This document shows, in pieces, positions 700 to 18,265 of a DNA stretch of 18,265 nucleotides. Numbering within the stretch: the stretch's first letter is position 1; the number at the start of each line of letters is the position of its first letter. The notes under the pieces are model-generated. The model was not told the DNA's origin. It saw nothing but the letters and a program-made list of their open reading frames with translations, and did not search any database. The DNA is from a virus (taxonomy: Duplodnaviria; Heunggongvirae; Uroviricota; Caudoviricetes): the IMG/VR virus record IMGVR_UViG_2541047922_000008; one strand, 5' to 3'. The translations under genes and the position numbers were made by a program.

Positions 700-1014
700 T
701 CACGATAGTTCCGTTTTGTTGAATTCAATTATATCAAGGTCAGAACTTTCGTAATCCTTACCGAATAAAGCAAAACATATCGCGTCAAGTTCTCTCTTAT
801 GTTTGGACGCCCGATCATAATTACCACCCCAACAGCAAATGAATCCACCAAGTACTGCTGATTCAAAAAGTAATGATGCTGCATCAATATGTCTGAACCA
901 GGAGTCTATAAGTAAAGCAGAGAGTGATATTAATGTTCCCCACCCGCCAATCCTTCTCCATTTCTCAGCTTCATATTTAAGAGAAGCAATATATTCAATT
1001 TTATCTCTCGTCAT
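700..1014 (-). CDS. small membrane protein, 104 aa, two predicted TM helices
   Basis: Hydrophobic stretches IGGWGTLISLSALLIDSWF and AASLLFESAVLGGFICCWGG. Its start overlaps the upstream stop as ATGA, with a GGTGGGGA SD. AT-rich relative to the upstream gene. Confidence 0.75.
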   Translation of the reverse strand: MTRDKIEYIASLKYEAEKWRRIGGWGTLISLSALLIDSWFRHIDAASLLFESAVLGGFICCWGGNYDRASKHKRELDAICFALFGKDYESSDLDIIEFNKTELS

Positions 1015-3770
1015 CAGTTCCCCACCGCCTTTCCAAAATCCGGTGCTCTACGTGGCGCAATAGCACCCGGTTCCCACCAACTCGTTATGTCGAACTCCCG
1101 TTGCGAGCGGTCCCTTACTCGATCATTGTAACCAGGGTTTGCCATCTCCTGAAGTTGTTGCAATATCAGGTGATTGGTTATCGCTTTCGCATACCACAGG
1201 TTTGCGAATGGGGTGATCATGCGGGCTGTTTTCAGTGCATCGGCACCGAATGATGTTTCTTCACCCTGTAGAGCCTTCTGTGGGTTAGTAATCAGTAATT
1301 TTGTTAACTGCTCTGCAAAGCTCAACACAGGGCCCCCCATAGTGGCACCGATGCTGGAGCCATATTGCGTATGGTCCTGGAAAATAAAATCACCGTAGAT
1401 ACCGAACGAACCACCTTTCAGTAAAGCCTGAACCCATGTGGTTGGTTTTGTCATATCCAGCGGATCATTACCATTTAACAAACTGTTCATCTGGATCGCA
1501 AACATACCAGCAAGAGTTGTTCCCCCGATATATGAGGCCAGAAATTTAATGGCCGGAACGGTGTCCAAATCCCGTGTTCTGTTAACAAGTTGCCGAAATC
1601 CAGCAAATGGGGTTGTTTTGAAGAGCATGAAGCTCTTCATTAACTCGCCAGCATCATCACGGGCATATGTATCAATACCCGTAGCGGTGGTCACAGCATT
1701 GGTCATCTCACCGTGCGTAATTCCCAGCAATTTCTGGGCTGCTTCAGCGCGTGCATTACGAATCATGCGCGTGATGGTCTGCTCAGCCTCAGCGTCGAAT
1801 GCTTCTTTCATCCGTTTCAGGCGTTCTGGAGGGAGATCTCCAAGGGCTGCCAGTGCCTTTTCACTCCCGGCACGAATCCGGGTAATACGGTCTGCCATAA
1901 TGTCGGCTATTACGTTATCGGGCACAGCGTAAATCGCGTCTGGCGTCATCCCCATATGCCCGGCAGTAGTCATCGGCCTGAGTTCTGCCGCTGCCATGAT
2001 GGCCCAGTCCTCATTGCTCCATCCCTTGTTAGCCAGAATGGTTTTATCGGTTCCTTTCATATCGTCCAGCGTCTTAAATTTTCTGGTCAGCTCGCCAATG
2101 TTTTTGTACATCAGGAGACCAAACGACGCTTTGTTTGCGCGGTCCATAGCGATCAGCCCGGACCACTTCAGTGTCTTCTCTGCGAACCAGCCAGTTATGC
2201 CGCGAGACAAGTCAAACCCGCCCATTTTCGAAACCACAGCAGCATGTGAATCCACCAGCAGACCGAGTTCAGCATTCGCCTTTTTGGCATCTCCACTAAA
2301 CAGGTTTTTGATAGTGTTAACGGAAAGCCGCATTCCACCACGGGTAAAGCCCAGCGCCTGCGCATTTGCCCGCATAATTGCCTGGTCGCTGGTTGCTGTC
2401 AGTACGCTGGTGCCAAGCATGGCGCTGGTCATCAGGTTACGCAGACCACCAACTGCTGAAGAGAACACACTCGATGAAGCGACACCATTTAGGCCAGCCA
2501 TTGAGTTGAACATACGGGCAACTAATTTGGCCTCATCCTCCATTTCTTTTTTGCGTTTCCCGCCTGTTACTGCGCGCTTATAGATGCGATCCAGTACCAG
2601 GGAAAAGTTTCTTTCGGCGTCCGGACCAAAGGCTTTAACGACGCCCAAATCCCTGGATGATGATTGCAGGTGCGACATCATCACCCCCACCAGCGGCTGC
2701 TGAGTGTATCGCTCCATATAGGCGAAGTGTGACTGCGCATCCTTGAACGCCATCACCCTGTGCTGAGAACCACGGCTCTTTATTCCTCCGGCTCCCATAA
2801 ATGTACCAGGCTCAATTTTGTTTGCCCCATCAGTGGCCTTCGTTTCAAAGATCGCTTCCAGTGCCTGACGGTACTCGACGTCATTCATAATGCTGCCGTC
2901 AGGATTAACGTAATTGCTGCGATCCTGCGTGTTGTAAGCGTCATCAACCCATTTCTGGCGGGCAAACTCAATCGGTGGCTGGCGACCTGAAAGACGTGCT
3001 GTAGCTTGCTCTGCCACTGGTAACGATGCCAGCCATTCTTCGCGCCCGGCATTGCGAATAAGGTCAGCATCATCCACATATGGCGTATGCCAGTCTTCTC
3101 GCAGGCCTATGTCAAAGCCATTGTCGTTCATCTCATGACGAACACGGCCTGTTACATCCTTCCAAATCTGTGCAATTTTCTTCGCCAGGGGATTCCCGGT
3201 ATCTTCGCCATATATTTCTTTCAGGATCTGGAGTTGTGCAGACTTTGCCGCCTGCCTGTCGAATACACTCCGAAACCGCTGCTCTCCAAGCGCCCTGCTC
3301 TGCTCGAAGAATTTGCGGACGTCATCACCTGCTTTTAGAAGTTCAGCACTGAGCTGACGGGACCAGTCCTGATATGCCCCAATTGCAAGCTCTTCAGCAG
3401 AAGTAACGGAGATATCAGCTTTGTCTCTCGATCGTCGGCCAGCAAAAATAAACTGCTGCAAATTAACAGGTGTCTGCTGATCAGGCGGGATGTTAGCATC
3501 GAGAGTGTCAGTAATTTTACTGATGGCGATCGCATTCTGGGCAACACGCTGTCTTTTCTTGTACACATCATGAACCACACGCTGGCGAACCAGTTCTGCA
3601 GCATCCATGTATGTTTGAGCATCAGGAATACCACTTTTGCCTTCCATTGCATTCTTTCTGTGCACTTGCCGCACAGCTTCTTTGATACGATCTTCGATAT
3701 TTTTCAGCTCATCAGCCTTTGGCTGGCGACCAAGTGTCTGCGCAATAGCTTCAACACATGCCTGTTTCAT
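1014..3770 (-). CDS. large protein (918 aa from ATG 3770) of unknown function, phage internal-virion/ejection-like
   Basis: Long ORF. I prefer ATG at 3768-3770 (GAGGA SD 7 nt upstream, TAATG overlap with the upstream stop) over the GTG at 3791 used by the track. Contains Gly-rich hydrophobic segments (SSVFSSAVGGLRNLMTSAMLGTSVLTA; GGTTLAGMFAIQ; KGGSFGIYGDFIF; ATMGGPVLSF) and long helical charged regions. No catalytic motif recognised. Confidence 0.85.
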   Translation of the reverse strand: MKQACVEAIAQTLGRQPKADELKNIEDRIKEAVRQVHRKNAMEGKSGIPDAQTYMDAAELVRQRVVHDVYKKRQRVAQNAIAISKITDTLDANIPPDQQTPVNLQQFIFAGRRSRDKADISVTSAEELAIGAYQDWSRQLSAELLKAGDDVRKFFEQSRALGEQRFRSVFDRQAAKSAQLQILKEIYGEDTGNPLAKKIAQIWKDVTGRVRHEMNDNGFDIGLREDWHTPYVDDADLIRNAGREEWLASLPVAEQATARLSGRQPPIEFARQKWVDDAYNTQDRSNYVNPDGSIMNDVEYRQALEAIFETKATDGANKIEPGTFMGAGGIKSRGSQHRVMAFKDAQSHFAYMERYTQQPLVGVMMSHLQSSSRDLGVVKAFGPDAERNFSLVLDRIYKRAVTGGKRKKEMEDEAKLVARMFNSMAGLNGVASSSVFSSAVGGLRNLMTSAMLGTSVLTATSDQAIMRANAQALGFTRGGMRLSVNTIKNLFSGDAKKANAELGLLVDSHAAVVSKMGGFDLSRGITGWFAEKTLKWSGLIAMDRANKASFGLLMYKNIGELTRKFKTLDDMKGTDKTILANKGWSNEDWAIMAAAELRPMTTAGHMGMTPDAIYAVPDNVIADIMADRITRIRAGSEKALAALGDLPPERLKRMKEAFDAEAEQTITRMIRNARAEAAQKLLGITHGEMTNAVTTATGIDTYARDDAGELMKSFMLFKTTPFAGFRQLVNRTRDLDTVPAIKFLASYIGGTTLAGMFAIQMNSLLNGNDPLDMTKPTTWVQALLKGGSFGIYGDFIFQDHTQYGSSIGATMGGPVLSFAEQLTKLLITNPQKALQGEETSFGADALKTARMITPFANLWYAKAITNHLILQQLQEMANPGYNDRVRDRSQREFDITSWWEPGAIAPRRAPDFGKAVGN

Positions 3771-5830
3771 TATGGGTTCCTCAAGAAGCACGCTGCCGCT
3801 ACAGAATAAACCTTCGATTCGTTCTGGACTGTCTTAATCTGTTCATCCAACTCAGCCAGGAGATCAGAAAGTTTTGTCGGGTTTCCGGTTTCCGGGTGAG
3901 CTATAGTCAGCTCAGGATTGGCAACAGCCATGTCCCTAGCAGCCATAAGGTCATAGCTGTTGGATGAGAGAACCTGCCCTGTATCTGGATCAACGCTGAC
4001 GTCCCCTCTGTGTTCACCAGCCGATGAGAAAGCACTTTCAGCACGAGGGACAGGCGATTCACTAATTGGCTCTGATGATGTTTCATATCTGACACCATTT
4101 TCTTCAAAAACCTTTTGTATTTCATGGTATTGCTCTTGGTAAGTATCAGATATATCTGATCGCAATGGACCATCAAGCCCTCGCGCCATCCCCCCAACAT
4201 TTACAGGCTGACCATCATTAAGTTGCCTGTATGCTTCATCCATGGCGTCAACATGGCTGTTGATGCTCTCATTGCTGGTGTGAAGCACTGGTGACGATTC
4301 AATATCGTAATGAAGCCCCTCATTCAAAATGTGGGCTGCATCAATATCGCTTGGTTTTATTCTTTCCCTCGCCCGGATACCAAAAACTTTTTCTACTGCG
4401 GCTTCCAGTTTCATATTGCGAAGACGCATACTTACGAGTAACCGTAACTGCTCAGGTGTAACGGTTCCAACCTGAATACCACTGTATCTGAATATATAGG
4501 CTTTAAAACCTGAAATAATTTTTTCCCATGATGAAACGCTTGTCTTTAGAGATGGATTTACTGCATGTGCGGCAACTTCTTCAGCGTACAACCACTCAGG
4601 ATATGTTTCAGGGTACTCACCCCTTTTCTTATATTCATAATATTGTGACATCCCATATGCAAATTCAGGATAGTCAGAATGCTTGTTTGCAGATTTAAGT
4701 ACAGCATTAGCTAGCTTTCTGGCCTTCCAGTCAGGGTAATGGCGCTGCTCAAGATGAAGCGCCTCGTGATGAAGGGTTTCTAACAGTTCTTCATGGTCTT
4801 TTAATCCATTAATATTTATTCTTATTATTGGTTCTTTTCCAGAAGCTACTGTCACATGACCTTTATTCAGAAGTATTTCTCCATCACTATTTTTTATTGC
4901 TGGTTCATTAATAAGTTCTATTACTCCTGAATCAGATAAATCACGAACCATTGACTCAATGTTACCATCAGGAGATTGCTGATAATGTTCACCAAAAGTT
5001 GATTTTATTTCTTCTGCAGAAATGTTCGACTCTGTACCATCATGGTTATTATGGGTAGTCAGGTGATGAACGCCACCAAAGACCCCGCCTAAAACGGCAT
5101 CGACTAACATCGCCTGACCGTCAAATACCCGGTACTGTTTTGCCATCTCCGTGTAGCCTTTTTCCTCCAGTGTTGCGCCGACAGAGTAACGGTTCAGTCC
5201 ACCGAATCCGGTGTTGATTGCCACACCTGAGGCAATGCGCGTTGCCAGTGTGGTGCCGACGGCAGCGGGTAAGGCCATACCCACAGCATTGAAAAGGCTT
5301 TGCTGCGTTGCCAGGTTACGCGCCGTAGCCTCGTCTACTCCCTTCCCTTTAAAATCCTGATAGGACTGCTCATACGTAGAACTGAAAGCTGTAGCAGCGC
5401 CGATGAGGGGACCGCCAAACATAGTTGTTCCGATTGCAGGAACAAATTTACCAAGCTCATTTAATACCTCAGCCGCCATTCCCTGACTGCCTGCATCAGG
5501 CTTCACATAGCTGCGGGCATCCTGTAACTGTTTTCCGATCGTGTCGTATGTATCATTCAGTGTTTTGTCAGCATCAGGGAACATCTCCCGAAAAATATTA
5601 ACAGTCGGTGCCACGTCTGCGGTAAATGCCGGATCGCTAATCAGGCGCTTGCTGAATCCGACGGCAGACTGCGCGAGACCGAGAGTCCCCTCCGCCACGC
5701 CGCTCAAAAGTGCAGTACCTGAACCCTGGAAGGGAGTCGGATCGTAGTCTTCTGGCCTTGCTGGGTTGGCAACTGTTTTGTCGTCAATCCATGCCTGACC
5801 TTCTGGAGCCAAAGAAAAAACATCAGACAT
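3770..5830 (-). CDS. large protein (686 aa) with Gly-rich hydrophobic N-terminal third and a central HEXXH (zincin-like) region
   Basis: Long ORF. GAGGG SD 7 nt upstream and a TAATG overlap with the 843-aa gene stop. N-terminal segments PAIGTTMFGGPLIGAATAF, NAVGMALPAAVGTTLATRIASGVAINTGFGG and VDAVLGGVFGGV. HEALH at residues 355-359. Confidence 0.85.
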   Translation of the reverse strand: MSDVFSLAPEGQAWIDDKTVANPARPEDYDPTPFQGSGTALLSGVAEGTLGLAQSAVGFSKRLISDPAFTADVAPTVNIFREMFPDADKTLNDTYDTIGKQLQDARSYVKPDAGSQGMAAEVLNELGKFVPAIGTTMFGGPLIGAATAFSSTYEQSYQDFKGKGVDEATARNLATQQSLFNAVGMALPAAVGTTLATRIASGVAINTGFGGLNRYSVGATLEEKGYTEMAKQYRVFDGQAMLVDAVLGGVFGGVHHLTTHNNHDGTESNISAEEIKSTFGEHYQQSPDGNIESMVRDLSDSGVIELINEPAIKNSDGEILLNKGHVTVASGKEPIIRININGLKDHEELLETLHHEALHLEQRHYPDWKARKLANAVLKSANKHSDYPEFAYGMSQYYEYKKRGEYPETYPEWLYAEEVAAHAVNPSLKTSVSSWEKIISGFKAYIFRYSGIQVGTVTPEQLRLLVSMRLRNMKLEAAVEKVFGIRARERIKPSDIDAAHILNEGLHYDIESSPVLHTSNESINSHVDAMDEAYRQLNDGQPVNVGGMARGLDGPLRSDISDTYQEQYHEIQKVFEENGVRYETSSEPISESPVPRAESAFSSAGEHRGDVSVDPDTGQVLSSNSYDLMAARDMAVANPELTIAHPETGNPTKLSDLLAELDEQIKTVQNESKVYSVAAACFLRNP
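4754..4768 (-). other. HEXXH motif (HEALH) of the 686-aa protein
   Basis: The reverse complement of 4754-4768 is CAC GAG GCG CTT CAT = H E A L H, in the context LETLHHEALHLEQRH. The motif alone does not prove a metallopeptidase. Confidence 0.55.
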
Positions 5831-8361
5831 TATTCAACCCTCACGACAATAGCTTCATTGGTTCTGGGATCTGTTGCCCAGCGTCCGCTACCATTTACCA
5901 GCCGATACCGGTTATTGCCGATATTAACTGGTGTGAAGTTTGACACTGCATTTACGTTAAGTCCGGCTTCTTTCAGTGCTTGTTTCGCAGATGTGGTATA
6001 GCGATCTTTGAAAGTAGATTTATCCATGCCGAAAGGCATTACAACGTCGCCGCCATTAAAATCCTTGTATATACCGCCAGTAGCATACTTCACGGCATCA
6101 GCAACAGTGTCTGTATCAGGCATACTGGTTCTTACCGTAGATGCATCACCTGATTGATAAGCTATTCCTGCGTAAGCGGCTTTGAAAAGGCTATAACTGA
6201 TCTGACGTAACTGCGGGTTACGGGCAAATGCGTTACCTACCTGTTTGTCGAAAGCGTCTTTCATCTTATCTTCGCTCGGCAACTGTACCGGAGTTATGCC
6301 CGCATTCTTCATGGCCTTCGTCGGATTCAGTAGTTGGTCACCGGAAAGAATAACCTTTGCAACGTCGTACTTGTTCATCGTCGGCTTATACCCGATGAAC
6401 TGACTATATGGGATCGACGGTCTGGTGTTATCGTACTGATTATCCGGCGTGCCCAGCAGCAGCGCAGAATAGGCTGTTGCCGCACTGTTCGGAGCAATTA
6501 CAGATGCCACCTGCCGTATTGCTGGCGCAGGCAGCTTCTCCCCCATGCTCTGCAACAGTTTAATTGTCTGGTCAACGTTCTGAGTGCCGCGCACCTGCTG
6601 TGCCAGCGCAGCCGCCTCTTCACTGTTGAGGATTGGGGCATTAATTCCCAACGCGCGTAAGCTTTCCTGCGACGAGAAACGGTTAGCCACCTCGGCAGTG
6701 ATGTCGTCAGGGTTGTTGCTGGTGATCGGCTTATAGGCTCCGATTTCCACCGCTGCACTAAACGGATTATTCTGCCTCTGGGTTATTACCTTCGTGGCTG
6801 CCGCCGATACCCGGTCGAATAACTCCGCACGAGACGCATACCCCTCCCCTGTCTCACCAGTATCCGGGCGTAATTGCTCAACATATGCGGTAATGCTGCT
6901 TGTCGGCATGTTGCGGAAAGAGCCTATATACTGTCCGGCGATCTGCAAATTTCTGAACTCGGTATATCGCAGGTTTCCTTCTCTGACACCATAAGCAGCA
7001 ATGAACTCACCCTCACCAGGCGGGTTAGGAAATTCAACGCCACGCATATACGCAGCCGTTGCATCGCGAACCCGGCTTTCGAGCATCGTTCTATATTCAG
7101 CCTGCTGCTGTCTGGCTAATGCATCCGTCTGTCGCAACACGCTGGCCTGATCTGATTCACTTAAAGCATCGAACCAAGCTACACCGGTATAACGTTTATT
7201 TTTTGTCGGTAGCTGAGAAAGCCCCAGTGCGGCACTAACGCCAGCGGCCAATTGCTGATCACTGTACGGCTGACTGCCTTGCTCATGATGAATAATTGCT
7301 TTGCACAGAGATTTCAGTGTGTCAGGATTTGATGCGTCAAGCGGCTGGTCAGGAGTTACACCGAGCTGAGCACATACTGCCCGTATATAAGCATCAGTTT
7401 TATTATCATCACTGGCCGGTGCCCAGCGATTAATTATTTCGCTGATGGTGTCATAACCCTGACGCTGATACGACAGCAAATTGCGACCAAGCGCGCGAAT
7501 ACCGTGTTCAGGGGTTTCGAATTTGGCAAAGCGACCATCATCACCAGTCTGCCCAACCCACGGATTAGTTTTGCTGTATTCAAGATTGCCGGGGTTATTG
7601 TTGCGTATACCGCGGGTACGATCGGAAGAGCCACTATCTGCTACAGCACGGCGAGATCCAGCAGCAGTATCGCTTAACTCGCCGTTTTGCTGTCTTACCT
7701 GAAGATAGTTTGCTCCAATAGCATTTTGAGCAGTTGCTTTTGCTGTTGCTTCTTTAAACTCGATTTTCTTGGCCTGGATTTGCTCGTCGCTCCAGCCATG
7801 CGCAATACCGTAATCCTCAATTTGCTGGAAAGTTTGCGTATTAGCCAATATGTATGCTGCGTTGTCGCCATATAATGCTGAGGCATTTTTACCATTATTC
7901 AGCAGTGTCGCCTGAAACTGGCCTTCTTCGTAGGCATTTATTTGCCCTATCTCGTACCTCCCGGCCTGCGTAGCGAACTGAATACGCTGCTGCTGCGCCT
8001 GCTGCATGAAAGCATTACGAGCCTGTTCATCCGGCAGCGACATAGCCAGTTGTTCGATCTGAGCATCAAACTGCTGTGTATACTCATGGCCTTTTCCAAT
8101 AGCATTTTTCCCTTTCAGGTTAAGCAATCCTGTTTCAGGATTATTCAGCAGATCACTGCCTGTCTGACTGAGTTTAAGGGATGCCTCCTGAACCAAGGCA
8201 ATATTGGCGCGCTGTTTTGCCTGACCAAGAACATCAATTGCCTCTGTCCCTGCCCGAACAAAAGCATCACCAATACCTGGCTGAGAAAACGTCTGCAAGC
8301 CTGCTGACTGAACTCCACGGCTCTCAACCTGGCGTCCGGATACTGTTGGTACGACTGGCAT
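5830..8361 (-). CDS. large protein (843 aa) with a central RNNNPGN-type domain, phage virion-associated cell-wall-hydrolase-like
   Basis: Long ORF with AGGGGG SD. The N-terminus is Q/A-rich and helical (MPVVPTVSGRQVESRGVQSAGLQTF...). Residues ~250-372 read RGIRNNNPGNLEYSKTNPWVGQTGDDGRFAKFETPEHGIRALGRNLLSYQRQGYDTISEIINRWAP. I recall this pattern from phage structural or putative muramidase proteins (memory, unverified). Confidence 0.85.
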   Translation of the reverse strand: MPVVPTVSGRQVESRGVQSAGLQTFSQPGIGDAFVRAGTEAIDVLGQAKQRANIALVQEASLKLSQTGSDLLNNPETGLLNLKGKNAIGKGHEYTQQFDAQIEQLAMSLPDEQARNAFMQQAQQQRIQFATQAGRYEIGQINAYEEGQFQATLLNNGKNASALYGDNAAYILANTQTFQQIEDYGIAHGWSDEQIQAKKIEFKEATAKATAQNAIGANYLQVRQQNGELSDTAAGSRRAVADSGSSDRTRGIRNNNPGNLEYSKTNPWVGQTGDDGRFAKFETPEHGIRALGRNLLSYQRQGYDTISEIINRWAPASDDNKTDAYIRAVCAQLGVTPDQPLDASNPDTLKSLCKAIIHHEQGSQPYSDQQLAAGVSAALGLSQLPTKNKRYTGVAWFDALSESDQASVLRQTDALARQQQAEYRTMLESRVRDATAAYMRGVEFPNPPGEGEFIAAYGVREGNLRYTEFRNLQIAGQYIGSFRNMPTSSITAYVEQLRPDTGETGEGYASRAELFDRVSAAATKVITQRQNNPFSAAVEIGAYKPITSNNPDDITAEVANRFSSQESLRALGINAPILNSEEAAALAQQVRGTQNVDQTIKLLQSMGEKLPAPAIRQVASVIAPNSAATAYSALLLGTPDNQYDNTRPSIPYSQFIGYKPTMNKYDVAKVILSGDQLLNPTKAMKNAGITPVQLPSEDKMKDAFDKQVGNAFARNPQLRQISYSLFKAAYAGIAYQSGDASTVRTSMPDTDTVADAVKYATGGIYKDFNGGDVVMPFGMDKSTFKDRYTTSAKQALKEAGLNVNAVSNFTPVNIGNNRYRLVNGSGRWATDPRTNEAIVVRVE
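7246..7614 (-). other. RNNNPGN-containing conserved domain inside the 843-aa protein
   Basis: The reverse complement of 7585-7605 is CGC AAC AAT AAC CCC GGC AAT = R N N N P G N. Domain limits were estimated by eye. Confidence 0.5.
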
Positions 8362-9030: not shown

Positions 9031-9447
9031 TTAGCCTCCGACTCTTCCGTAGTGCTGTTCTGGTGGATTCACATAGCCCCTTTCTTGCAGGTATTCGCGA
9101 ATATCAGACATCAGGAGACGGTTAACCGTGCTCTTGTCTTTTCTCCGGTAAAGGCGTCTGGTGATCATGAAGTAGTTAGCAATGATCTCCGGTATATCCC
9201 TGACGCTGATACATGCTGTATGCTGGTCAATAGCTTCAATCATCTCTTCACGAGTTACAAAAGTCTGGCGTAAACGAGTGATCACACCATGTACATCTGA
9301 ATGATCATTTATACGCTTATTTTGGCGCTTCGCGCTCTCGACTGTGACACTGACAACAATGTCAACTCTTTGTTTTTCCGCAATTTCATCCACAATGTGA
9401 TCACCTGCACGGCGACCATGTGCGTGATCATTTCTTACTATTTCCAT
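9031..9447 (-). CDS. hypothetical protein, 138 aa
   Basis: ORF co-oriented with the operon, overlapping the proQ/finO-like stop by 20 nt. No family recognised. Confidence 0.65.
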
Positions 9448-9925
9448 TCATCTCCTCCAGTAGTTTTCCTGCGTGCGTCTGTTGTAGTGGTGTTACCTCG
9501 CCGCACGGCTGGCCTTTCAGGTCGTAACGCGCGCCACCAGCTACCAGGGCGCGGTAATAGCGCGGAGTCTGCACATAACGCGCCAGCGTTGCGCGTAGTG
9601 TTCCCTGTCCGAGTGAAATACCTCTCGCGGCAATATCCTGTATCAGGTCGTCAAATATCCCCACCTTAAGCGGCTTAGGTGATTCCGGGCTGAATAATTC
9701 AGGCCATAGCTCAATAAGACGGTTAACGCGTCTGCGGTTTTTACGCTGCTGTTTGGTCATACGCCGCCGCGGTGTTGCTCCTGTGAGCTTCTGCTGTGTG
9801 TTCTGGTTATCTGGCATCACTTTATGCGCCGATGTGGTTTTATTCTGCTGCTGCGCCGCCTGTGCTGTTTTCTGCGGCGTGCCGTAAATGCCCTTCGGTT
9901 TTCTGTTTATGGTCAGCTTTGTCAT
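9428..9925 (-). CDS. ProQ/FinO-domain RNA-binding protein, 165 aa
   Basis: Basic N-terminus followed by [29 protein letters not shown]...[35 protein letters not shown], the characteristic FinO/ProQ domain pattern. GGGGAAGG SD. Confidence 0.85.
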
Positions 9926-9961: not shown

Positions 9962-10387
9962 TTAAAACGGTATCCCGTCCCCGTACGGATCATCGTGCTG
10001 GCCTGTCTGTTGCTTTGCCCTGTTCAGTGCATCAGTAGCCTGCCCCTGCTGGCCTTTTTTGCCGCCCGGTCGCGCCGTTCGCGCACTGATTACGCTGTCT
10101 GCGATAACCTGCCATCCCTGCCTCGTTTCGCCGTTCTGGCCCGTCCACCGGCTCACCTGCATGTTACCGGCCACGCTTACCAGTTCGCCTTTGTGGTGTT
10201 TTGCCAGTGCGTCAGCCTGTCTGCCAAACGCCAGGACGGATAACCACATCGTCGCCGTTCCGTCATCTGCCTGATTGCATGGAAGGGGGACCGCCATACT
10301 CGCCATCGCCATTTGTGTGCCCTTGCTGGTGGTCTTTAACTGCGGGTCAGCCACCAGCCGCCCGTAAGCTGATATTTGCGCCGTCAT
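9962..10387 (-). CDS. ssb: single-stranded DNA-binding protein, 141 aa
   Basis: OB-fold-like N-terminal region, a Gly/Gln-rich linker, and an acidic tail ending DDPYGDGIPF (canonical SSB tip ...D-I-P-F). Confidence 0.9.
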   Translation of the reverse strand: MTAQISAYGRLVADPQLKTTSKGTQMAMASMAVPLPCNQADDGTATMWLSVLAFGRQADALAKHHKGELVSVAGNMQVSRWTGQNGETRQGWQVIADSVISARTARPGGKKGQQGQATDALNRAKQQTGQHDDPYGDGIPF

Positions 10388-14305: not shown

Positions 14306-14863
14306 TTACACATTGCTTTCACCCTCCAGAAAATCAGGCTGATATTTACGCCATAGCGCCCGCTCTTCTCGTTCCAGTGCATCTTTTGCCTCTTTGCATT
14401 GCTGTAACCTGTAACCGCGTTTGCTGGCTTCCTGTTGATATGCAGCCTGACGTTTACTGAAATCATTCAGCATGGCAAACGGAACACCATAACCCCCCGT
14501 TTTGCGGATTGAAGGAATCACCTCGCGGAATACCCAGTTACTGAAACGGTGCGCAAATGTGCCTGGTGTGGAAGCTTTACGGCTGCGGGCGATCAGTTTG
14601 TAGAAACCTGATTCAGAGACAACATTCCAGCTTCTGGCACCACCACGCTTACCGGAATGACCCTCGGTTAAAGCTAGGGTCATTACCTCATCGTTATCCA
14701 GAACTGAAACGGCATCAGTAACATTGCTGATTTCCAGCGCGGCACACACATCAGCGCCAACAAACCACGGCTCGCCGTTGATACTCACTATGCGCACCTG
14801 AATGTCATCGAATTTAATGACAGAGATTTCAGTGCGACCAGCATAAAAGACAGGTTTACGCAT
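14306..14863 (-). CDS. Bro-N domain protein (prophage antirepressor family), 185 aa
   Basis: IKFDDIQVRIVSINGEPWFVGADVCAALEISNVTDAVSVLDNDE matches the Bro-N pattern. 8-nt overlap with the upstream gene. Confidence 0.85.
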   Translation of the reverse strand: MRKPVFYAGRTEISVIKFDDIQVRIVSINGEPWFVGADVCAALEISNVTDAVSVLDNDEVMTLALTEGHSGKRGGARSWNVVSESGFYKLIARSRKASTPGTFAHRFSNWVFREVIPSIRKTGGYGVPFAMLNDFSKRQAAYQQEASKRGYRLQQCKEAKDALEREERALWRKYQPDFLEGESNV

Positions 14864-15656
14864 GGCTGCTCACCTCCATGCGGCGGGCTAACCAGCGTTG
14901 CGAAAGGCGAATTAATTCAGCTTTCCGCTGGTGGTAGTCCAGGCCTAACTCAATCAGCGTGATATTGCTCTGCTCAAGGTAAGAAAGGTGCTCAAGCTGC
15001 AACACGCTCATGTGGTCGCGTGGTTCACCTGTGATGCCGTTCGCCTGCGCCCACTGTTTTGCAGTCATGCCACCCAGCACGATACGCGCCAGCATATTAG
15101 CTTCCGTAGTGTAGTGGTGCTGGAGCGTGTTTTTACCCAGTTCAGCCCGGTACGCCTCCAGCGCGGCACACATTGGCTTAAAGTAGCTGGCTACGGTGAT
15201 ACGGGCTTTCAGTTCCCGGCGTAACGCTGCGGAACGTACAGGCGCTACCTTGTGTAGCTCCTCCTCGCATTTGATGAAGTACTGACGAACGGCGCGGCCC
15301 TGTTCGGTGCGTTCGATCATTGCCAGTTCTTTCGCCATATTCAGGGTGAGTAAGTAATCATGAGCAAGCTGCTGGCGAGATTTTGCGCTCGCCGAATTGG
15401 GTGAGGTCAAATATTTGACGACTTCAAAATCTACTCCCTTTTTAAATCCATACTCCTCAATGCGCCCTTTAATCCAATTGGTGAAATCACGGCCTACCCC
15501 GAGCGCATTATGCAACGTTCTAGCGCTAACAATATTGGTTTCACGCCCGCCAATAACGCCGGAAATAACCGGGATAATTTCGCCAAAATTTTGCAGATTC
15601 TGGTTTTCAGGCCGAACGAAGCCCTGCCCCTGTACGGGCGTTTTTCGCAGTTTCAT
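14856..15656 (-). CDS. AntA/AntB-type antirepressor-family protein, 266 aa
   Basis: VSARTLHNALGVGRDFTNWIKGRIEEYGFKKGVDFEV ... DYLLTLNMAKELAMIERTEQGRAVRQYFIKCEE is the AntA N-terminal domain pattern. Confidence 0.85.
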   Translation of the reverse strand: MKLRKTPVQGQGFVRPENQNLQNFGEIIPVISGVIGGRETNIVSARTLHNALGVGRDFTNWIKGRIEEYGFKKGVDFEVVKYLTSPNSASAKSRQQLAHDYLLTLNMAKELAMIERTEQGRAVRQYFIKCEEELHKVAPVRSAALRRELKARITVASYFKPMCAALEAYRAELGKNTLQHHYTTEANMLARIVLGGMTAKQWAQANGITGEPRDHMSVLQLEHLSYLEQSNITLIELGLDYHQRKAELIRLSQRWLARRMEVSSHA

Positions 15657-15731: not shown

Positions 15732-15929
15732 TCAGGCAGCCGTTCCGCGTGATTCGGCAATACGCTGATTGATCCATTCGTCAATTTCACTTTCAACGAA
15801 AGCAATCGCTCGCGAGCCAATTTTAACTGATGCAGGAAATTTACCTTGCCCCATAAGGCGATAAATCCATGCCTTGCTATATCCAGTTCTACGCTGAACT
15901 TCTGTTAAACGAATAAGCGTATTTGACAT
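15732..15929 (-). CDS. alpA: AlpA/Vis-family transcriptional regulator/excisionase, 65 aa
   Basis: LIRLTEVQRRTGYSKAWIYRLMGQGKFPASVKIGSRAIAFVESEIDEWI is the classic AlpA helix-turn-helix. GAGGT SD. Confidence 0.9.
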   Translation of the reverse strand: MSNTLIRLTEVQRRTGYSKAWIYRLMGQGKFPASVKIGSRAIAFVESEIDEWINQRIAESRGTAA

Positions 15930-15998
15930 CTATTTACCTCATAACGTCTACTCAATTTGACGAGGTAATCATGGCACAGAAATAACGAATATTTTCAT

Positions 15999-16109
15999 AC
16001 CCTCAGGCCTAATGGTTACCGGAAGGAAATTAACCCTAAGGGTGATGGTAAAATTGACGGGGAAGATAAAAAAAATACCCTCAGGGTAACAGTAAATCAC
16101 CCTCAGGGT
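15999..16109. repeat. four copies of the 11-bp palindrome ACCCTNAGGGT upstream of alpA
   Basis: accctcaggcc at 15999 (imperfect), accctaagggt at 16033, accctcagggt at 16077, accctcagggt at 16099. Spacings are 34, 44 and 22 bp. Confidence 0.7.
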
Positions 16110-16124
16110 ATGTGGTATGGTGCG

Positions 16125-16928
16125 TTAATCCGGCTTTGCGTTCTTTTGGCTGTTGTCTCGGTTAATAGGGCAGGCAGTCCTCTCTATGAGCGTTGCAAGA
16201 GCATTACTTGCCCCCCACTGCTTAAGCTCCCTGGTTATCGCTTCTTGATTTCCCCTGGTGGCAAAATCATTTTCTGGATCGTAATTGGCCCACTCTCTGT
16301 TTCTAATCTCAATAGCCTTAGCTAATGGGTCTTTATCCCAGTATTTATATAAGTGTATCGGGCGCTCTTGCTCTAACTGCTCTATCCTTGCCCTTAACTC
16401 TGCGTTTTCTCTTTCCAGCATTGCGATTTGGGATAATAAATCATCCTCTGTACGCAACTCTTTCTTTTCAATATCGCGTCCTTGTGCCTCGTCATTTTCA
16501 GAAGAGTTAGCGCCTTCCAGCTTCGTTAACGCGTCAAGGACATCGGGAAAAATTGCGAAAATTTCACCCCTTATAAATCCAATGTTCTCAAATTCGGGAT
16601 CTTCCCAATAACCGGACACCAGAAAACCATTTTCATCCCTCTCACCAGGTAAACAACCATGTTTCCGAACCGCATCCAGATTTCTATAAAGAACATCATA
16701 ATCAAATTCATCCCGATACGGGTTACAAAAAGATTCCAACAGCTTAAATTCATTTACTGTGTACAGGCGGATATGTTCTCCGCTTATTCTCCTGAGTATC
16801 CAAGTTATGAGATCTGAAACATCATAATCATCACCAGCGACCTTAAGCACGACCTCAAGAAATTCACGTAAAGAAATAAAATCTTTTTTGTATTCGTTTA
16901 ATTCGGCATGAATATCAATCATACGCAC
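16125..16928 (-). CDS. hypothetical protein, 267 aa, AT-rich, central coiled-coil; cargo gene between int and alpA
   Basis: GAGGTG SD. LSQIAMLERENAELRARIEQLEQE is coiled-coil-like. No family recognised. Two 60-nt lines hand-counted gave 25/60 and 19/60 GC, visibly lower than neighbouring genes. Confidence 0.8.
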   Translation of the reverse strand: MRMIDIHAELNEYKKDFISLREFLEVVLKVAGDDYDVSDLITWILRRISGEHIRLYTVNEFKLLESFCNPYRDEFDYDVLYRNLDAVRKHGCLPGERDENGFLVSGYWEDPEFENIGFIRGEIFAIFPDVLDALTKLEGANSSENDEAQGRDIEKKELRTEDDLLSQIAMLERENAELRARIEQLEQERPIHLYKYWDKDPLAKAIEIRNREWANYDPENDFATRGNQEAITRELKQWGASNALATLIERTACPINRDNSQKNAKPD

Positions 16929-17032
16929 ACCTCAGCGTCCTCTACTGTAGTGGCTGTGCCAGCCCGTCGAGGTATACGGTTTTTCGGGAGCGACCCTAGA
17001 CACAGCCTTTTCTTTCGTCGCTCAAAGTCTAC

Positions 17033-17052
17033 TACTGTATACTCAACCAGTC
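17033..17052. promoter_or_regulatory. LexA (SOS) box-like sequence
   Basis: TACTGTATACTCAACCAGTC has CTG-N10-CAG and 14/20 identity to TACTGTATATATATACAGTA by my count. It lies ~105 nt upstream of the 267-aa gene and overlaps the integrase stop codon. Confidence 0.35.
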
Positions 17053-18265
17053 ATCCACATTTTCCGAACTTGCCATGCACCACGTTGCCGCCCTGTTCCA
17101 GTGAGTCCATATAGTCGGCGTACCACTGGAGCATCTCGCGCCGCCCGTCCAGATATTGCGCATGATTGTACGTGCCACGAATTGAGTTCTTATCAACGTG
17201 TGCAAGCTGCGTTTCTATCCACGCGGTGTTATAGCCCTGCTCATGTAAAATCGTGCTCATCGTGTGCCGGAACCCATGACCAGTAACGCGCCCAGAATAG
17301 CCAATACGACGAATAAGCACGTTCATCGCCATTTCACTCATCGGCTTACTGTGCTGGATTCGACCAGGGAAAATAAACTGATACTGCCCCGTCATGTGTT
17401 TTAACTGTTCCAGAATAGCGATCGCCTGTTCTGAAAGCGGCACACAATGAGGACGGCGCATCTTCATTCGTTCTTTAGGCACTTCCCACAAACGATTATC
17501 AAAATCGATCTCCTGCCATTCTGCCTGTCGTAATTCCCCTGGCCGGAGCCCTGTCAGAATCAATAATCGCATACCCAGCTTGACGATCTGGCTTCCGGTG
17601 TACGTATTAAGAACGCGGAAAAATTCCGGCAGTTCGTCGGCCTTCAAATAGGCATAATGCTCTTTTTTGTGTGGAGCAAATGCGCTTGCCAGATCTGGTG
17701 CGGGGTTATATTCAGCGCGTCCGGTGATGATTGCGTACCGGAACACCTCGCCGCATCGCTGGCGAACCTTACGCAATTTTTCGGTCGCCCCACGGTCATT
17801 AAGACGGGAGAGAACCGCAAGCAACTCCATTGGCTTAATTTCTGCGATCGGCCTGCCGCCAATGTACGGAAAAACGTCTTTTTCAAACGTCTCGATCATT
17901 TCCTCGGCGTATGACGATGACCACCTGTCGATCCGCTTTTCATACCATTCGCGAGCGATACCCTCAAAAGTATTGCCAAATTTGCTCGCCTGTTCTCGCT
18001 TTTGAGCTTTTCTGGCCTCACTTGGATTTATACCACCAGCAAGAAGCCTTTTAGCCTCATCCCTTGCCGCTCTGGCATCAGACAGAGACACATCAGGGTA
18101 CACGCCCAACGACAACATTTTGGGCTTTCCTGCAAATCTGTAACGTAGTCGCCACCCTTTCGAGCCGTTCGGCTCAATGAGTAACGAAAGCCCGTTACCG
18201 TCATTGAGTGTATAAGCCTTTTCTTTCGGCTTCGCGCGCCTGATAGCAAGGTCTGAAAGCAGCAT
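17051..18265 (-). CDS. int: P4-type tyrosine integrase, 404 aa
   Basis: N-terminus LSDLAIRRAKPKEKAYTLNDGNGLSLLIEPNGSKGWRLRYRFAGKPKMLSLGVYPDVSLSDAR is typical of P4-family integrases. The C-terminal catalytic region contains RPGELRQAEW, HGFRHT and RGTYNHAQY. Confidence 0.95.
   Translation of the reverse strand: MLLSDLAIRRAKPKEKAYTLNDGNGLSLLIEPNGSKGWRLRYRFAGKPKMLSLGVYPDVSLSDARAARDEAKRLLAGGINPSEARKAQKREQASKFGNTFEGIAREWYEKRIDRWSSSYAEEMIETFEKDVFPYIGGRPIAEIKPMELLAVLSRLNDRGATEKLRKVRQRCGEVFRYAIITGRAEYNPAPDLASAFAPHKKEHYAYLKADELPEFFRVLNTYTGSQIVKLGMRLLILTGLRPGELRQAEWQEIDFDNRLWEVPKERMKMRRPHCVPLSEQAIAILEQLKHMTGQYQFIFPGRIQHSKPMSEMAMNVLIRRIGYSGRVTGHGFRHTMSTILHEQGYNTAWIETQLAHVDKNSIRGTYNHAQYLDGRREMLQWYADYMDSLEQGGNVVHGKFGKCG

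What the first reader, a model, noticed from the sequence alone, without database searches (positions are those of the whole stretch)
16125..17052. AT-rich orphan gene in the int-alpA slot with an SOS-box-like site upstream: candidate defence or abortive-infection cargo
- The 267-aa ORF has clearly lower GC than its neighbours and no recognisable domain apart from a coiled coil.
- It occupies the integrase-proximal position where P4-like and PICI elements commonly carry variable anti-phage cargo.
- About 105 nt upstream lies TACTGTATACTCAACCAGTC, which has CTG-N10-CAG and 14/20 identity to the LexA consensus. This suggests damage- or induction-linked expression.
Basis: partly seen in the sequence, partly recalled or inferred. 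Interest (0 to 1): 0.6.

Follow-up and report, generated by a model that had tools for sequence, protein, structure and literature searches.

The report
Satellite gene module upstream of alpA
The ORF is a real gene of an uncharacterised family that, in phage-satellite islands, always sits just upstream of the master activator gene alpA, with a LexA-type operator, a structured RNA leader and its own palindrome array, so it looks more like a damage-linked regulatory module than stand-alone anti-phage cargo.

Summary
There is a 265-aa gene (ATG 16922 to 16125, minus strand) at 41.6% GC, with no Pfam, NCBIfam, PHROG or PADLOC domain. The best LexA-like site in the window lies about 105 nt upstream.

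It is not an orphan. About 120 clusters (50% identity) share a 70-aa C-terminal domain preceded by a leucine zipper, while the N-terminal domains are swapped.

In about 80 loci from Enterobacterales, Orbaceae and Pasteurellaceae the gene lies directly upstream of alpA. This holds even where int is elsewhere. In most loci the Rfam "int-alpA RNA" precedes it by 0-20 nt.

In enteric loci the LexA-like box is conserved and overlaps a conserved predicted promoter. ACCCTnAGGGT palindromes upstream of alpA occur only with this C-domain. They are absent from an island whose AlpA is 97% identical.

My best reading (about 0.4) is an SOS- and RNA-controlled dimeric regulator that gates alpA, with a variable sensor domain. 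Defence cargo remains possible (about 0.25). The slot does vary between islands, but nothing here supports an effector.

The parts
17033..17052 (-). LexA-operator-like box (minus strand GACTGGTTGAGTATACAGTA). It overlaps the int stop codon at 17053..17051.
   Evidence: Scores 18.1 bits with a LexA weight matrix and is the best site in the window; 9/500 shuffles reach it. It is conserved at the same position in 12 other loci (9-27 bits) and in enteric IMG/VR loci.
17026..17054 (-). Predicted sigma-70 promoter of the gene: -35 ATGACT (17054..17049), 17-nt spacer holding the LexA box, -10 TAGACT (17031..17026).
   Evidence: 8/12 match here. In most relatives it is TAGACA-17-TAGACT (9/12), with the -35 inside the LexA box and the -10 ending 18-22 nt before the RNA motif. 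This is a prediction only; the stricter scan found none.
16939..17006 (-). Rfam RF02996 'int-alpA RNA': three-helix leader with a loop-to-tail pseudoknot (P3 loop 16976..16967 pairing with tail AGAGG near 16943..16939).
   Evidence: 46.9 bits against a gathering score of 35.8. 13/16 pairs covary in 44 distinct sequences. The pseudoknot is 5 bp in 42/44 sequences, in three covarying forms. The start codon follows 16 nt after the motif.
16930..16933 (-). Shine-Dalgarno GAGG, 7 nt before the ATG at 16922.
   Evidence: Read from the sequence. The minimum-free-energy fold pairs this region with the CACCUC-like P3 loop; that fold has a weak z-score of -1.7.
16125..16922 (-). Protein-coding gene, 265 aa plus stop (called X in this report).
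   Evidence: AF2 gives mean pLDDT 74.
16518..16922 (-). N-terminal domain (aa 1-135). It is variable and swapped between relatives.
   Evidence: pLDDT is about 85-90. It is found with another C-terminus in P0096, P0101 and others. In some islands it is a separate ORF ending DFDDDIPF.
16365..16448 (-). Leucine zipper / coiled coil (aa 159-186). L169, L176 and L183 are invariant or nearly so.
16158..16364 (-). Conserved C-terminal four-helix domain (aa 187-255), with the motif ..DPL..AI.IRN.EW..YDP...TRGNQ.AI..L....A..IE.VACPI.R.
   Evidence: Invariant W, I, E and P. It is always C-terminal, in 143 of 159 proteins. AF2 gives pLDDT 84.5. No solved relative was found by sequence or fold.
16033..16109 (.). 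Three perfect ACCCTnAGGGT palindromes (16099-16109, 16077-16087, 16033-16043) between the stop codon and the alpA promoter.
   Evidence: They are present only in loci with this C-domain. They are absent from 9 loci without it, including one whose AlpA is 97% identical.
15995..16015 (-). Promoter-proximal hybrid palindrome CCATTAGGCCTGAGGGTATGA, abutting the predicted -35 of the alpA promoter.
   Evidence: A CCATT...AATGG version is also present in L025, which lacks the distal array.
15968..15978 (-). Predicted extended -10 of the alpA promoter (TGTGCCATGAT).
   Evidence: Conserved as TG-n-CATCAT/AATCAT in relatives. This is an inference from sequence.
15732..15929 (-). alpA, the master activator of Gram-negative PICIs.
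   Evidence: Pfam Phage_AlpA, E 2.4e-19. Its role is described in PMC6092414.
17051..18265 (-). Tyrosine integrase next to tRNA-Gly (the tRNA lies outside the window).

Best explanation
The gene (X) encodes a member of an uncharacterised, satellite-specific protein family. The family forms one unit with alpA in PICI-type phage satellites. The unit runs in this order:
- a LexA-type operator overlapping the promoter;
- a pseudoknotted leader RNA (Rfam int-alpA) ending just before the ribosome-binding site;
- X itself, made of a swappable N-terminal domain, a leucine zipper and a conserved 70-aa C-terminal domain;
- an array of 11-13-bp palindromes;
- the alpA promoter and alpA.

I propose that X is a zipper-dimerised DNA-binding regulator. 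Its conserved C-domain would bind the palindrome array and so gate transcription of alpA, the activator that starts the satellite's excision-replication cycle. The variable N-domain would be the input side, sensing a phage or host protein. Synthesis of X would be limited to DNA damage by LexA and tuned at translation by the leader RNA.

Shown here: family membership, modular architecture, fixed synteny with alpA, the RNA leader, the conserved LexA-like box and predicted promoter, and exclusive co-occurrence of the palindromes with the C-domain.

Inferred: DNA binding by the C-domain, any effect on alpA and its sign (repressor or activator), LexA binding, and the sensor role of the N-domain.
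For: 1. In 21 species-representative loci the homologue is immediately upstream of alpA on the same strand wherever alpA was detected (14 of the 21). This holds in Pasteurellaceae too, where int lies at the far end on the other strand. In 59/59 IMG/VR loci that carry the leader RNA, an AlpA-like ORF follows.

2. ACCCTnAGGGT palindromes (up to 2 mismatches) in the 300 nt upstream of alpA number 3-6 in the 10 intact enteric loci with the C-domain. Two degenerate loci have 1-2. The count is 0 in 9 loci without the C-domain, including L025 (AlpA 97% identical) and L028 (83% identical). So the sites go with X and not with AlpA.

3. The half-site drifts from TACCCT to TACTAT in Orbaceae and Pasteurellaceae. 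Over the same range the C-domain motif changes from TRGNQ to TRPTQ/APKA.

4. A heptad leucine zipper directly precedes the C-domain. That fits dimeric binding to palindromes. In the window two of the palindromes are 22 bp apart.

5. The leader RNA lies 0-20 nt before the start codon in the window, in 14 GTDB loci and in 59/63 IMG/VR loci. It shows strong covariation and a covarying pseudoknot.

6. The LexA-like box scores 18.1 bits and is conserved (14-27 bits) in enteric loci. It overlaps the -35 or the spacer of a conserved predicted promoter.

7. There is no match in 50,697 GenBank phage records. The family looks satellite-specific.

8. The literature leaves this role open. How helper phages switch on alpA is unknown, and whether Gram-negative PICIs have a master repressor is unclear (PMC6092414).
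Against: - The palindromes are physically next to the gene, so co-inheritance alone could produce the association. They could serve another factor or act at the RNA level; one copy is followed by T8 and resembles a weak terminator.
- Related, functional PICIs such as EcCIMP1 have an empty slot. In EcCICFT073 and EcCIMP1, alpA responds to the helper phage and not to SOS alone. X therefore cannot be a universal core regulator.
- Other islands carry unrelated genes in the same slot. In L028 such a gene sits behind the same leader. That looks like cargo exchange.
Confidence: 0.4

Rival explanations
1. X is stand-alone anti-phage defence or abortive-infection cargo carried in the integrase-proximal accessory slot of the satellite. 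The variable N-domain would reflect an arms race with phages.
For: - PICIs are reported to carry immune systems at their 5' or 3' ends (PMC11364771).
- The slot content differs among related E. coli islands: a type-B C-terminus, unrelated 309-aa and 260-aa proteins, DUF6387, or nothing. It differs even where AlpA is 97% identical.
- GC content is low.
- N-domains are hypervariable and shuffled.
- EcCIMP1 completes its cycle without such a gene.
Against: - The window protein has no PADLOC hit. Ten divergent relatives give only weak coiled-coil/SMC-like matches, E 0.0008-0.009.
- No enzymatic or membrane effector domain was found; the protein is a small all-helical protein with a zipper.
- A LexA-repressed promoter plus a translational leader is unusual for a constitutive guard.
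- The gene stays fixed next to alpA even when int is elsewhere.
- It has a dedicated palindrome array in the alpA upstream region.
- The two readings are not exclusive. SaPI2 Stl is both a repressor and an immunity factor (PMC11846896 abstract).
Confidence: 0.25
2. X acts in the DNA-damage, replication or SSB protein network. For example it could recruit or compete for host proteins that bind the SSB C-terminal tail, helping satellite replication or modulating SOS. On this view it is not a transcription factor.
For: - The LexA-type operator is conserved.
- In about 20 of 59 IMG/VR loci and 5 GTDB loci the N-domain is a separate ORF ending in PMDFDDDIPF/IWPGDIPF, the SSB C-terminal tip motif (the motif identity is from my own knowledge).
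- The island encodes its own SSB and a DUF927 primase.
Against: - The window protein has no SSB-like tail.
- This reading explains neither the fixed pairing with alpA nor the C-domain-specific palindromes.
Confidence: 0.15
3. The LexA-like box is a chance match, or a site for another factor, and the ORF is a decaying remnant.
For: - Simple CTG-N10-CAG or CTGT-N8-ACAG counts are not above chance for the motif with one mismatch.
- 9/500 shuffles reach the weight-matrix score.
- Some relatives are truncated or reduced to the C-domain only.
Against: - The box is conserved at one position across genera while the flanks diverge. In Raoultella it reads AACTGTATATAAATACAGTT, scoring 27 bits.
- The ORF is intact and at least 99% conserved in about 140 E. 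coli genomes.
- The ORF folds confidently.
Confidence: 0.03

Closest known systems
SaPI/PICI master repressor Stl (Rpr) of Gram-positive satellites
   Same: Both are satellite-encoded. Both lie next to int and in front of the genes that start the satellite cycle. Both combine a conserved DNA-side module with a highly variable module, which in Stl captures helper-phage proteins. Stl can double as an immunity factor.
   Different: No HTH was detected in X, and the two are not sequence-related. X is co-directional with the gene it would control, not divergent. X sits behind a LexA-type operator and a structured leader, whereas Stl is SOS-insensitive. X is not universal among Gram-negative PICIs. 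The function of X is untested.
Rfam RF02996 int-alpA RNA (listed in Rfam as an sRNA candidate)
   Same: The motif at 17006..16939 is a bona fide member: 46.9 bits with covarying helices.
   Different: Here it behaves as the 5' leader of one gene family. The start codon lies 0-20 nt downstream. The motif keeps this position in Pasteurellaceae, where int is not upstream. It has a loop-to-tail pseudoknot next to the ribosome-binding site. I did not see this link stated in the papers I could read.
E. coli SOS-regulon genes with a LexA operator over the promoter (e.g. dinB, recN, sulA)
   Same: The site is a 20-bp box of the CTG-N10-CAG type, scoring like median known operators and placed over the -35 or spacer of the predicted promoter. 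By my recollection it is closest to the dinB operator CACTGTATACTTTACCAGTG.
   Different: LexA binding is untested. The gene is on a mobile satellite. Published alpA reporters in other PICIs are not induced by SOS alone.
Accessory / immune hotspots of PICIs and P4-like satellites
   Same: The position is integrase-proximal and the content varies between related islands.
   Different: The occupants seen here are a few families of about 200-340-aa helical proteins that share shuffled domains. None matches a known defence family at a convincing level. The slot brings its own cis elements: leader RNA and palindromes.
YfjH / DUF6387 proteins next to alpA in CP4-57-like islands
   Same: They are uncharacterised genes adjacent to alpA in P4-related islands.
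   Different: There is no detectable homology: BLASTP against YfjH gives E 0.22. yfjH is divergent from alpA. Those loci have no leader RNA and no ACCCTnAGGGT sites.

Membership tests
Rfam RF02996 int-alpA RNA | Covariance-model score at or above the gathering threshold | tested here: met
   46.9 bits against 35.8, E 4e-7, full-length match at 17006..16939.
Rfam RF02996 int-alpA RNA | Helices supported by compensatory changes | tested here: met
   96.7% of cells are paired and 13/16 pairs change on both sides; 0/500 shuffles reach this. The alignment was fitted to the model.
LexA (SOS) regulon gene | 20-bp operator resembling TACTGT(AT)4ACAGTA with CTG-N10-CAG | tested here: met
   14/20 to consensus and 18.1 bits with a matrix of 24 known operators (recalled from memory; leave-one-out range 7.6-26.4). 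Orthologous positions score 9-27 bits.
LexA (SOS) regulon gene | Operator overlaps the promoter of the regulated gene | tested here: inconclusive
   The box lies in the spacer (window) or over the -35 (most relatives) of a conserved predicted promoter, TAGACA-17-TAGACT. No transcription start is known, and the stricter scan found no promoter.
LexA (SOS) regulon gene | LexA binding and induction by DNA damage | not testable with these tools
   Needs EMSA or ChIP and reporters in lexA mutants.
Known anti-phage defence systems (PADLOC-DB 2.0) | Profile match to a protein of a known or candidate system | tested here: not met
   No family matches the window protein at E<=0.1. Ten divergent relatives give only weak coiled-coil/SMC-like matches, E 0.0008-0.009.
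Known anti-phage defence systems (PADLOC-DB 2.0) | Location in a variable hotspot of a mobile element | tested here: met
   The int-alpA slot holds at least five different contents in related E. coli islands.
Known anti-phage defence systems (PADLOC-DB 2.0) | Protection against phage infection | not testable with these tools
   Needs plaque assays.
Gram-negative PICI (host element) | int, alpA and pri/rep co-directional; about 10-20 kb; tRNA-adjacent; no virion or lysis genes | tested here: met
   int, alpA, antA, BRO-N, DUF4222, DUF927 primase, SSB, ProQ and PerC are all on one strand. The island is about 19 kb and lies at tRNA-Gly between actS and yqeG.
Gram-negative PICI (host element) | Helper-phage-dependent induction and packaging | not testable with these tools
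   Shown only for relatives such as EcCIMP1 and EcCICFT073.
Stl/Rpr-type satellite master repressor | Recognisable HTH DNA-binding domain | tested here: not met
Stl/Rpr-type satellite master repressor | Transcribed divergently from the operon it represses | tested here: not met
   X is co-directional with alpA in all loci.
Stl/Rpr-type satellite master repressor | Variable domain that binds a helper-phage protein | not testable with these tools
   Domain variability is shown. Binding is unknown.
bZIP transcription factor (name given to some homologues in RefSeq) | Basic DNA-contact region immediately N-terminal to the zipper | tested here: not met
   Pfam bZIP_2 scores E 0.022, 15.3 bits against a cut-off of 22.3, and covers only the zipper end. 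The preceding segment is acidic.
SSB C-terminal-tail mimic | C-terminal ...D-F-D-D-D-I-P-F peptide | tested here: not met
   Absent from the window protein. Present on the separate N-domain ORF of split relatives.

The most novel reading that the evidence does not exclude
X could be the missing link between helper phage and alpA in a large subset of Gram-negative PICIs.

On this reading it is an SOS-gated, riboregulated sensor-regulator. Its swappable N-domain would capture a phage-encoded protein. In some islands that domain is a separate bait carrying the SSB C-terminal tail, so the target could be an SSB-tail-binding recombinase or replication protein. Capture would change occupancy of the C-domain on the palindrome array and switch on alpA. 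Titrating the phage protein could at the same time interfere with the phage.

It would also reassign the Rfam 'int-alpA sRNA' as the translational leader of this sensor.
Probability: 0.15. Interest if true: 0.85.

Novelty: new variant of a known kind. Interest (0 to 1): 0.6.

Why it matters
How Gram-negative phage-inducible islands sense their helper phage and switch on AlpA is an acknowledged open question (PMC6092414).

This gene family is absent from every domain library tested here. It lies directly upstream of alpA at every locus where an alpA gene was detected. It comes with three concrete cis elements: a LexA-type operator, a pseudoknotted leader RNA and a C-domain-specific palindrome array.

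That makes the question testable with a handful of reporter, EMSA and deletion experiments in strains such as E. coli 55989 or O104:H4, which carry this allele. It also gives a probable role to an orphan Rfam motif.

If the gene instead proves to be defence cargo, it would be a new SOS-controlled type.

Tried and rejected
- Homology to K-12 YfjH, the neighbour of alpA in CP4-57: BLASTP E 0.22, and yfjH is on the opposite strand. Rejected.
- EcCIMP1_002 as a C-domain-only relative: the EcCIMP1 int-alpA gap holds only unrelated short ORFs. Rejected.
- Profile searches of PDB sequences with C-domain and N-domain alignments were negative.
- tblastn against GenBank phages found no match.
- AlpA as the binder of the ACCCTnAGGGT sites: rejected, because L025 (AlpA 97% identical) and L028 (83% identical) have none.
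- The palindromes as plain terminators: only one copy has a T-run, and relatives lack it. Judged unlikely.
- P0075, a C-domain fragment fused to a LacI-type sugar-binding domain: judged a chimera or truncation and not informative.
- Pfam scans of the other slot occupants and of divergent N-domains found only DUF6387 and coiled-coil noise.
- The Cell 2022 PICI-immunity paper and the supplement of the Rfam motif paper could not be read.
- Literature searches for the SSB-tail motif in satellites found nothing relevant.
Full report
WHAT IS THERE

The window is part of an approximately 19-kb island in the E. coli chromosome. The island is inserted at tRNA-Gly between actS and yqeG. Almost all of its genes are on the minus strand. 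In order they are:
- int (18265..17051);
- the ORF in question;
- alpA (15929..15732);
- antA, BRO-N and an Icd-like gene;
- DUF4222;
- a DUF927 primase;
- SSB, ProQ/FinO and PerC;
- three large unknown ORFs.

This is the layout of a Gram-negative phage-inducible chromosomal island (PICI), as described in PMC6092414 and PMC11773190.

The ORF listed from the GTG at 16928 has 267 codons. The ATG at 16922 has GAGG 7 nt upstream and is the annotated start, giving 265 aa.

GC content is 41.6% for the gene. int is 50.7% and antA is 52.3%.

Pfam, NCBIfam, PHROGs and PADLOC return nothing except sub-threshold coiled-coil matches.

THE LEXA-LIKE SITE

TACTGTATACTCAACCAGTC lies at 17033-17052. It matches the consensus at 14/20 positions and overlaps the int stop codon.

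Crude pattern counts are not above chance. A weight matrix built from 24 E. coli operators, which I recalled from memory, gives 18.1 bits. That is the median of known sites left out one at a time. The next best site in the window scores 9.4. Nine of 500 shuffles of the window reach 18.1.

Conservation is the stronger evidence. A CTG[GT]-N8-ACAG box sits directly after the int stop codon in Kluyvera, Raoultella, Pantoea, Symbiopectobacterium, Xenorhabdus, Cedecea, Photorhabdus and Atlantibacter, and in other E. coli islands. Scores are mostly 14-27 bits, and the Raoultella box reads AACTGTATATAAATACAGTT. The same box is found in the enteric-type IMG/VR loci at a fixed 39-47 nt from the RNA motif, or 22 nt in the window type.

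A conserved predicted promoter goes with the box. In most loci it is -35 TAGACA, inside the box, then 17 nt, then -10 TAGACT. In the window type a short deletion puts the box in the spacer between ATGACT and TAGACT. This is a prediction and not a mapped promoter; the stricter scan found none.

THE GENE IS NOT AN ORPHAN

A search of 5.8 billion proteins gave 43 relatives at 98-25% identity. A profile search of 1.84 billion cluster representatives gave 123 clusters.

The alignment shows three parts:
- a hypervariable N-terminal half;
- a heptad leucine zipper, with L169, L176 and L183 invariant or nearly so;
- a strongly conserved C-terminal domain of about 70 aa, always at the very C-terminus, in 143 of 159 collected proteins.

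The window's N-domain type also occurs with a different C-terminus, in P0096, P0101 and the slot proteins of L026 and L027. Domains are therefore shuffled.

AlphaFold models are confident for the N-domain (pLDDT about 85-90) and for the C-domain (84.5, four helices). Neither has a convincing solved relative.

This exact allele is at least 99% identical over its C-terminal part in about 140 of 5426 complete E. coli genomes. These include 55989 and O104:H4 strains. The family has no match in 50,697 GenBank phage records.

SYNTENY

In 21 species-representative loci the homologue is immediately upstream of alpA on the same strand, wherever alpA could be detected (14 of the 21). In Enterobacterales the order is int, X, alpA. 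In Pasteurellaceae int lies at the far end on the opposite strand, yet X still precedes alpA.

In the 59 IMG/VR loci that have the C-domain and the leader RNA, an AlpA-like ORF follows in all 59. The gene is therefore linked to alpA and not to int.

THE LEADER RNA

Rfam's int-alpA RNA (RF02996) matches 17006..16939 at 46.9 bits. It ends 16 nt before the ATG.

The same motif precedes the X gene in 14 of the GTDB loci, including Pasteurellaceae. A model built here finds it in 59 of 63 IMG/VR loci, and two of the four misses are truncated contigs.

The gap from the motif to the start codon is 0-20 nt throughout.

Thirteen of 16 base pairs show changes on both sides. The P3 loop pairs with the conserved purine tail in 42 of 44 distinct sequences, in three covarying forms: CCUCU/AGAGG, CCUUA/UAAGG and CCCUA/UAGGG. 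That is a pseudoknot next to the ribosome-binding site.

In the window the same loop can alternatively pair with the Shine-Dalgarno region (weak z-score).

The motif thus behaves as a translational leader of this gene rather than as a free-standing sRNA. It is absent from islands whose slot holds other genes (L003, L025, L026, L027, L029-L031). The exception is L028, where the same LexA box and leader precede an unrelated 309-aa ORF.

THE PALINDROMES

Between the stop codon of X and the alpA promoter the window has three perfect ACCCTnAGGGT palindromes, plus a hybrid site next to the predicted -35.

Counting sites with up to 2 mismatches in the 300 nt upstream of alpA gives a clean split:
- The 10 intact enteric loci with the C-domain have 3-6.
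- Two degenerate loci, one C-domain-only and one pseudogenised, have 1-2.
- All nine loci without the C-domain have 0. These include L025 (AlpA 97% identical) and L028 (83% identical).

The sites therefore do not belong to AlpA. They travel with X.

In Orbaceae and Pasteurellaceae the half-site becomes TACTAT. There the C-domain motif TRGNQ is replaced by TRPTQ or APKA-type sequences.

A zipper dimer placed in front of a conserved small domain, together with arrays of short palindromes (two of the window's copies are 22 bp apart), is the anatomy of a DNA-binding regulator. This step is inference. No DNA-binding fold was recognised.

THE SLOT VARIES

Related E. coli islands hold several different contents between int and alpA:
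- proteins with the type-B C-terminus (L026, L027);
- a 260-aa protein with only a faint C-domain resemblance (L025; HMM E about 1e-5);
- an unrelated protein (L028);
- DUF6387 proteins (L029, L031);
- nothing at all (EcCIMP1/L003, L030).

EcCIMP1 is a functional PICI without such a gene. Its alpA, and that of EcCICFT073, respond to the helper phage and not to SOS alone. X therefore cannot be a universal core regulator.

The literature places immune genes at the 5' end of PICIs. This keeps the defence reading alive, but nothing in the protein supports it.

SPLIT RELATIVES

In five GTDB loci and about 20 IMG/VR loci the gene is split. ORF1 is the N-domain and ends in PMDFDDDIPF, or in variants such as IWPGDIPF. 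By my own knowledge this is the C-terminal tip of E. coli SSB. ORF2 is the zipper plus the C-domain.

This fusion/fission pattern says the two halves work together. It also hints that the N-domain side deals with proteins that bind the SSB tail. The window protein has no such tail.

VERDICT

The SOS link is supported by comparative evidence. The 'orphan' label is wrong.

The defence-cargo interpretation is neither supported nor excluded. The best-supported model, at about 0.4, is a LexA- and RNA-controlled modular regulator that acts on the palindrome array in front of alpA. The rivals are defence cargo at about 0.25 and an SSB/replication-network role at about 0.15.

The family, its tie to the int-alpA RNA and the operator array appear undescribed in the papers I could search.

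Noticed in passing
window 16939-17006 (minus strand); L004-L016, L022, L023, L028, L032-L094: The Rfam 'int-alpA RNA', listed as an sRNA, sits 0-20 nt before the start codon of this gene family. This holds even where int is not upstream. It has a covarying loop-to-tail pseudoknot beside the ribosome-binding site. It looks like a cis-acting translational leader.
   Followed up: yes
L004:5651-5971, L005:6001-6369, L006:5633-5953, L007:5537-5842, L014:5108-5428; about 20 IMG/VR loci (e.g. L037, L041, L044): In split versions of the gene the N-domain ORF ends in PMDFDDDIPF, DFDDLIPF or IWPGDIPF, which is the SSB C-terminal tip motif. A separate zipper plus C-domain ORF follows.
   Followed up: partly
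window 700-8361 (minus strand: 8361..5830, 5830..3770, 3791..1014, 1014..700): Three overlapping or abutting large ORFs (843, 686 and about 920 aa) plus a 104-aa ORF lie at the island's 3' end. They have no Pfam or PADLOC match. This is a more typical place and size for unknown accessory or defence cargo than the int-alpA gene. A Photorhabdus locus (L013:1219-1629) has a 41%-identical fragment of the first ORF.
   Followed up: partly
L028 (E. coli EC2001, same tRNA-Gly/actS site): 3362-4440: The same LexA box (TACTGTATGAATAGACAGTA, 22.8 bits) and leader RNA (94 bits) precede an unrelated ORF of about 309 aa. So the operator plus leader can act as an expression platform for swapped genes.
   Followed up: partly
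window 17026-17031 and 15937-15953; equivalent sites in L004-L012, L025, L026: A TAGAC(T/G) motif recurs in the -10 region of the X promoter (often as TAGTAGAC-N-TAGTAGAC) and just before the alpA ribosome-binding site (GAGTAGACGTTATGAGG). It is present whatever the slot content, so it may be an AlpA site or another shared site.
   Followed up: no
L026:4340-4930, L027:3339-4079; proteins P0096, P0097, P0101, P0104, P0110: A second C-terminal module (..FAGK.TA...IAG.A.AL.....KY.RG.KLN.S..) replaces the conserved C-domain behind the same kind of N-domain, in the same int-alpA slot. These loci lack the leader RNA and the ACCCTnAGGGT sites.
   Followed up: partly
window 9962-10387 and 9428-9925 (minus strand): The island encodes its own short SSB (141 aa), whose tail ends ..DDPYGDGIPF rather than DFDDDIPF, and a ProQ/FinO-family RNA chaperone. 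Both could connect to the SSB-tail variants and to the leader RNA.
   Followed up: no
window 14856-15656 (minus strand): The C-terminal part of the AntA-family protein matches the PADLOC candidate family PDC-S22 (E 1.3e-10, aa 172-254).
   Followed up: no
window 15995-16015; L025 upstream of alpA: A wider palindrome (CCATTAGG-CCTGAGGG here, CCATTCATAATGG in L025) abuts the predicted -35 of the alpA promoter. Unlike the distal array, it is also present in an island without the C-domain protein.
   Followed up: no
protein P0075 (344 aa): This protein is a chimera. Zipper and half a C-domain, identical in type to P0034, are joined to a LacI-family sugar-binding domain. It is probably an insertion or truncation artefact rather than a real architecture.
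   Followed up: partly
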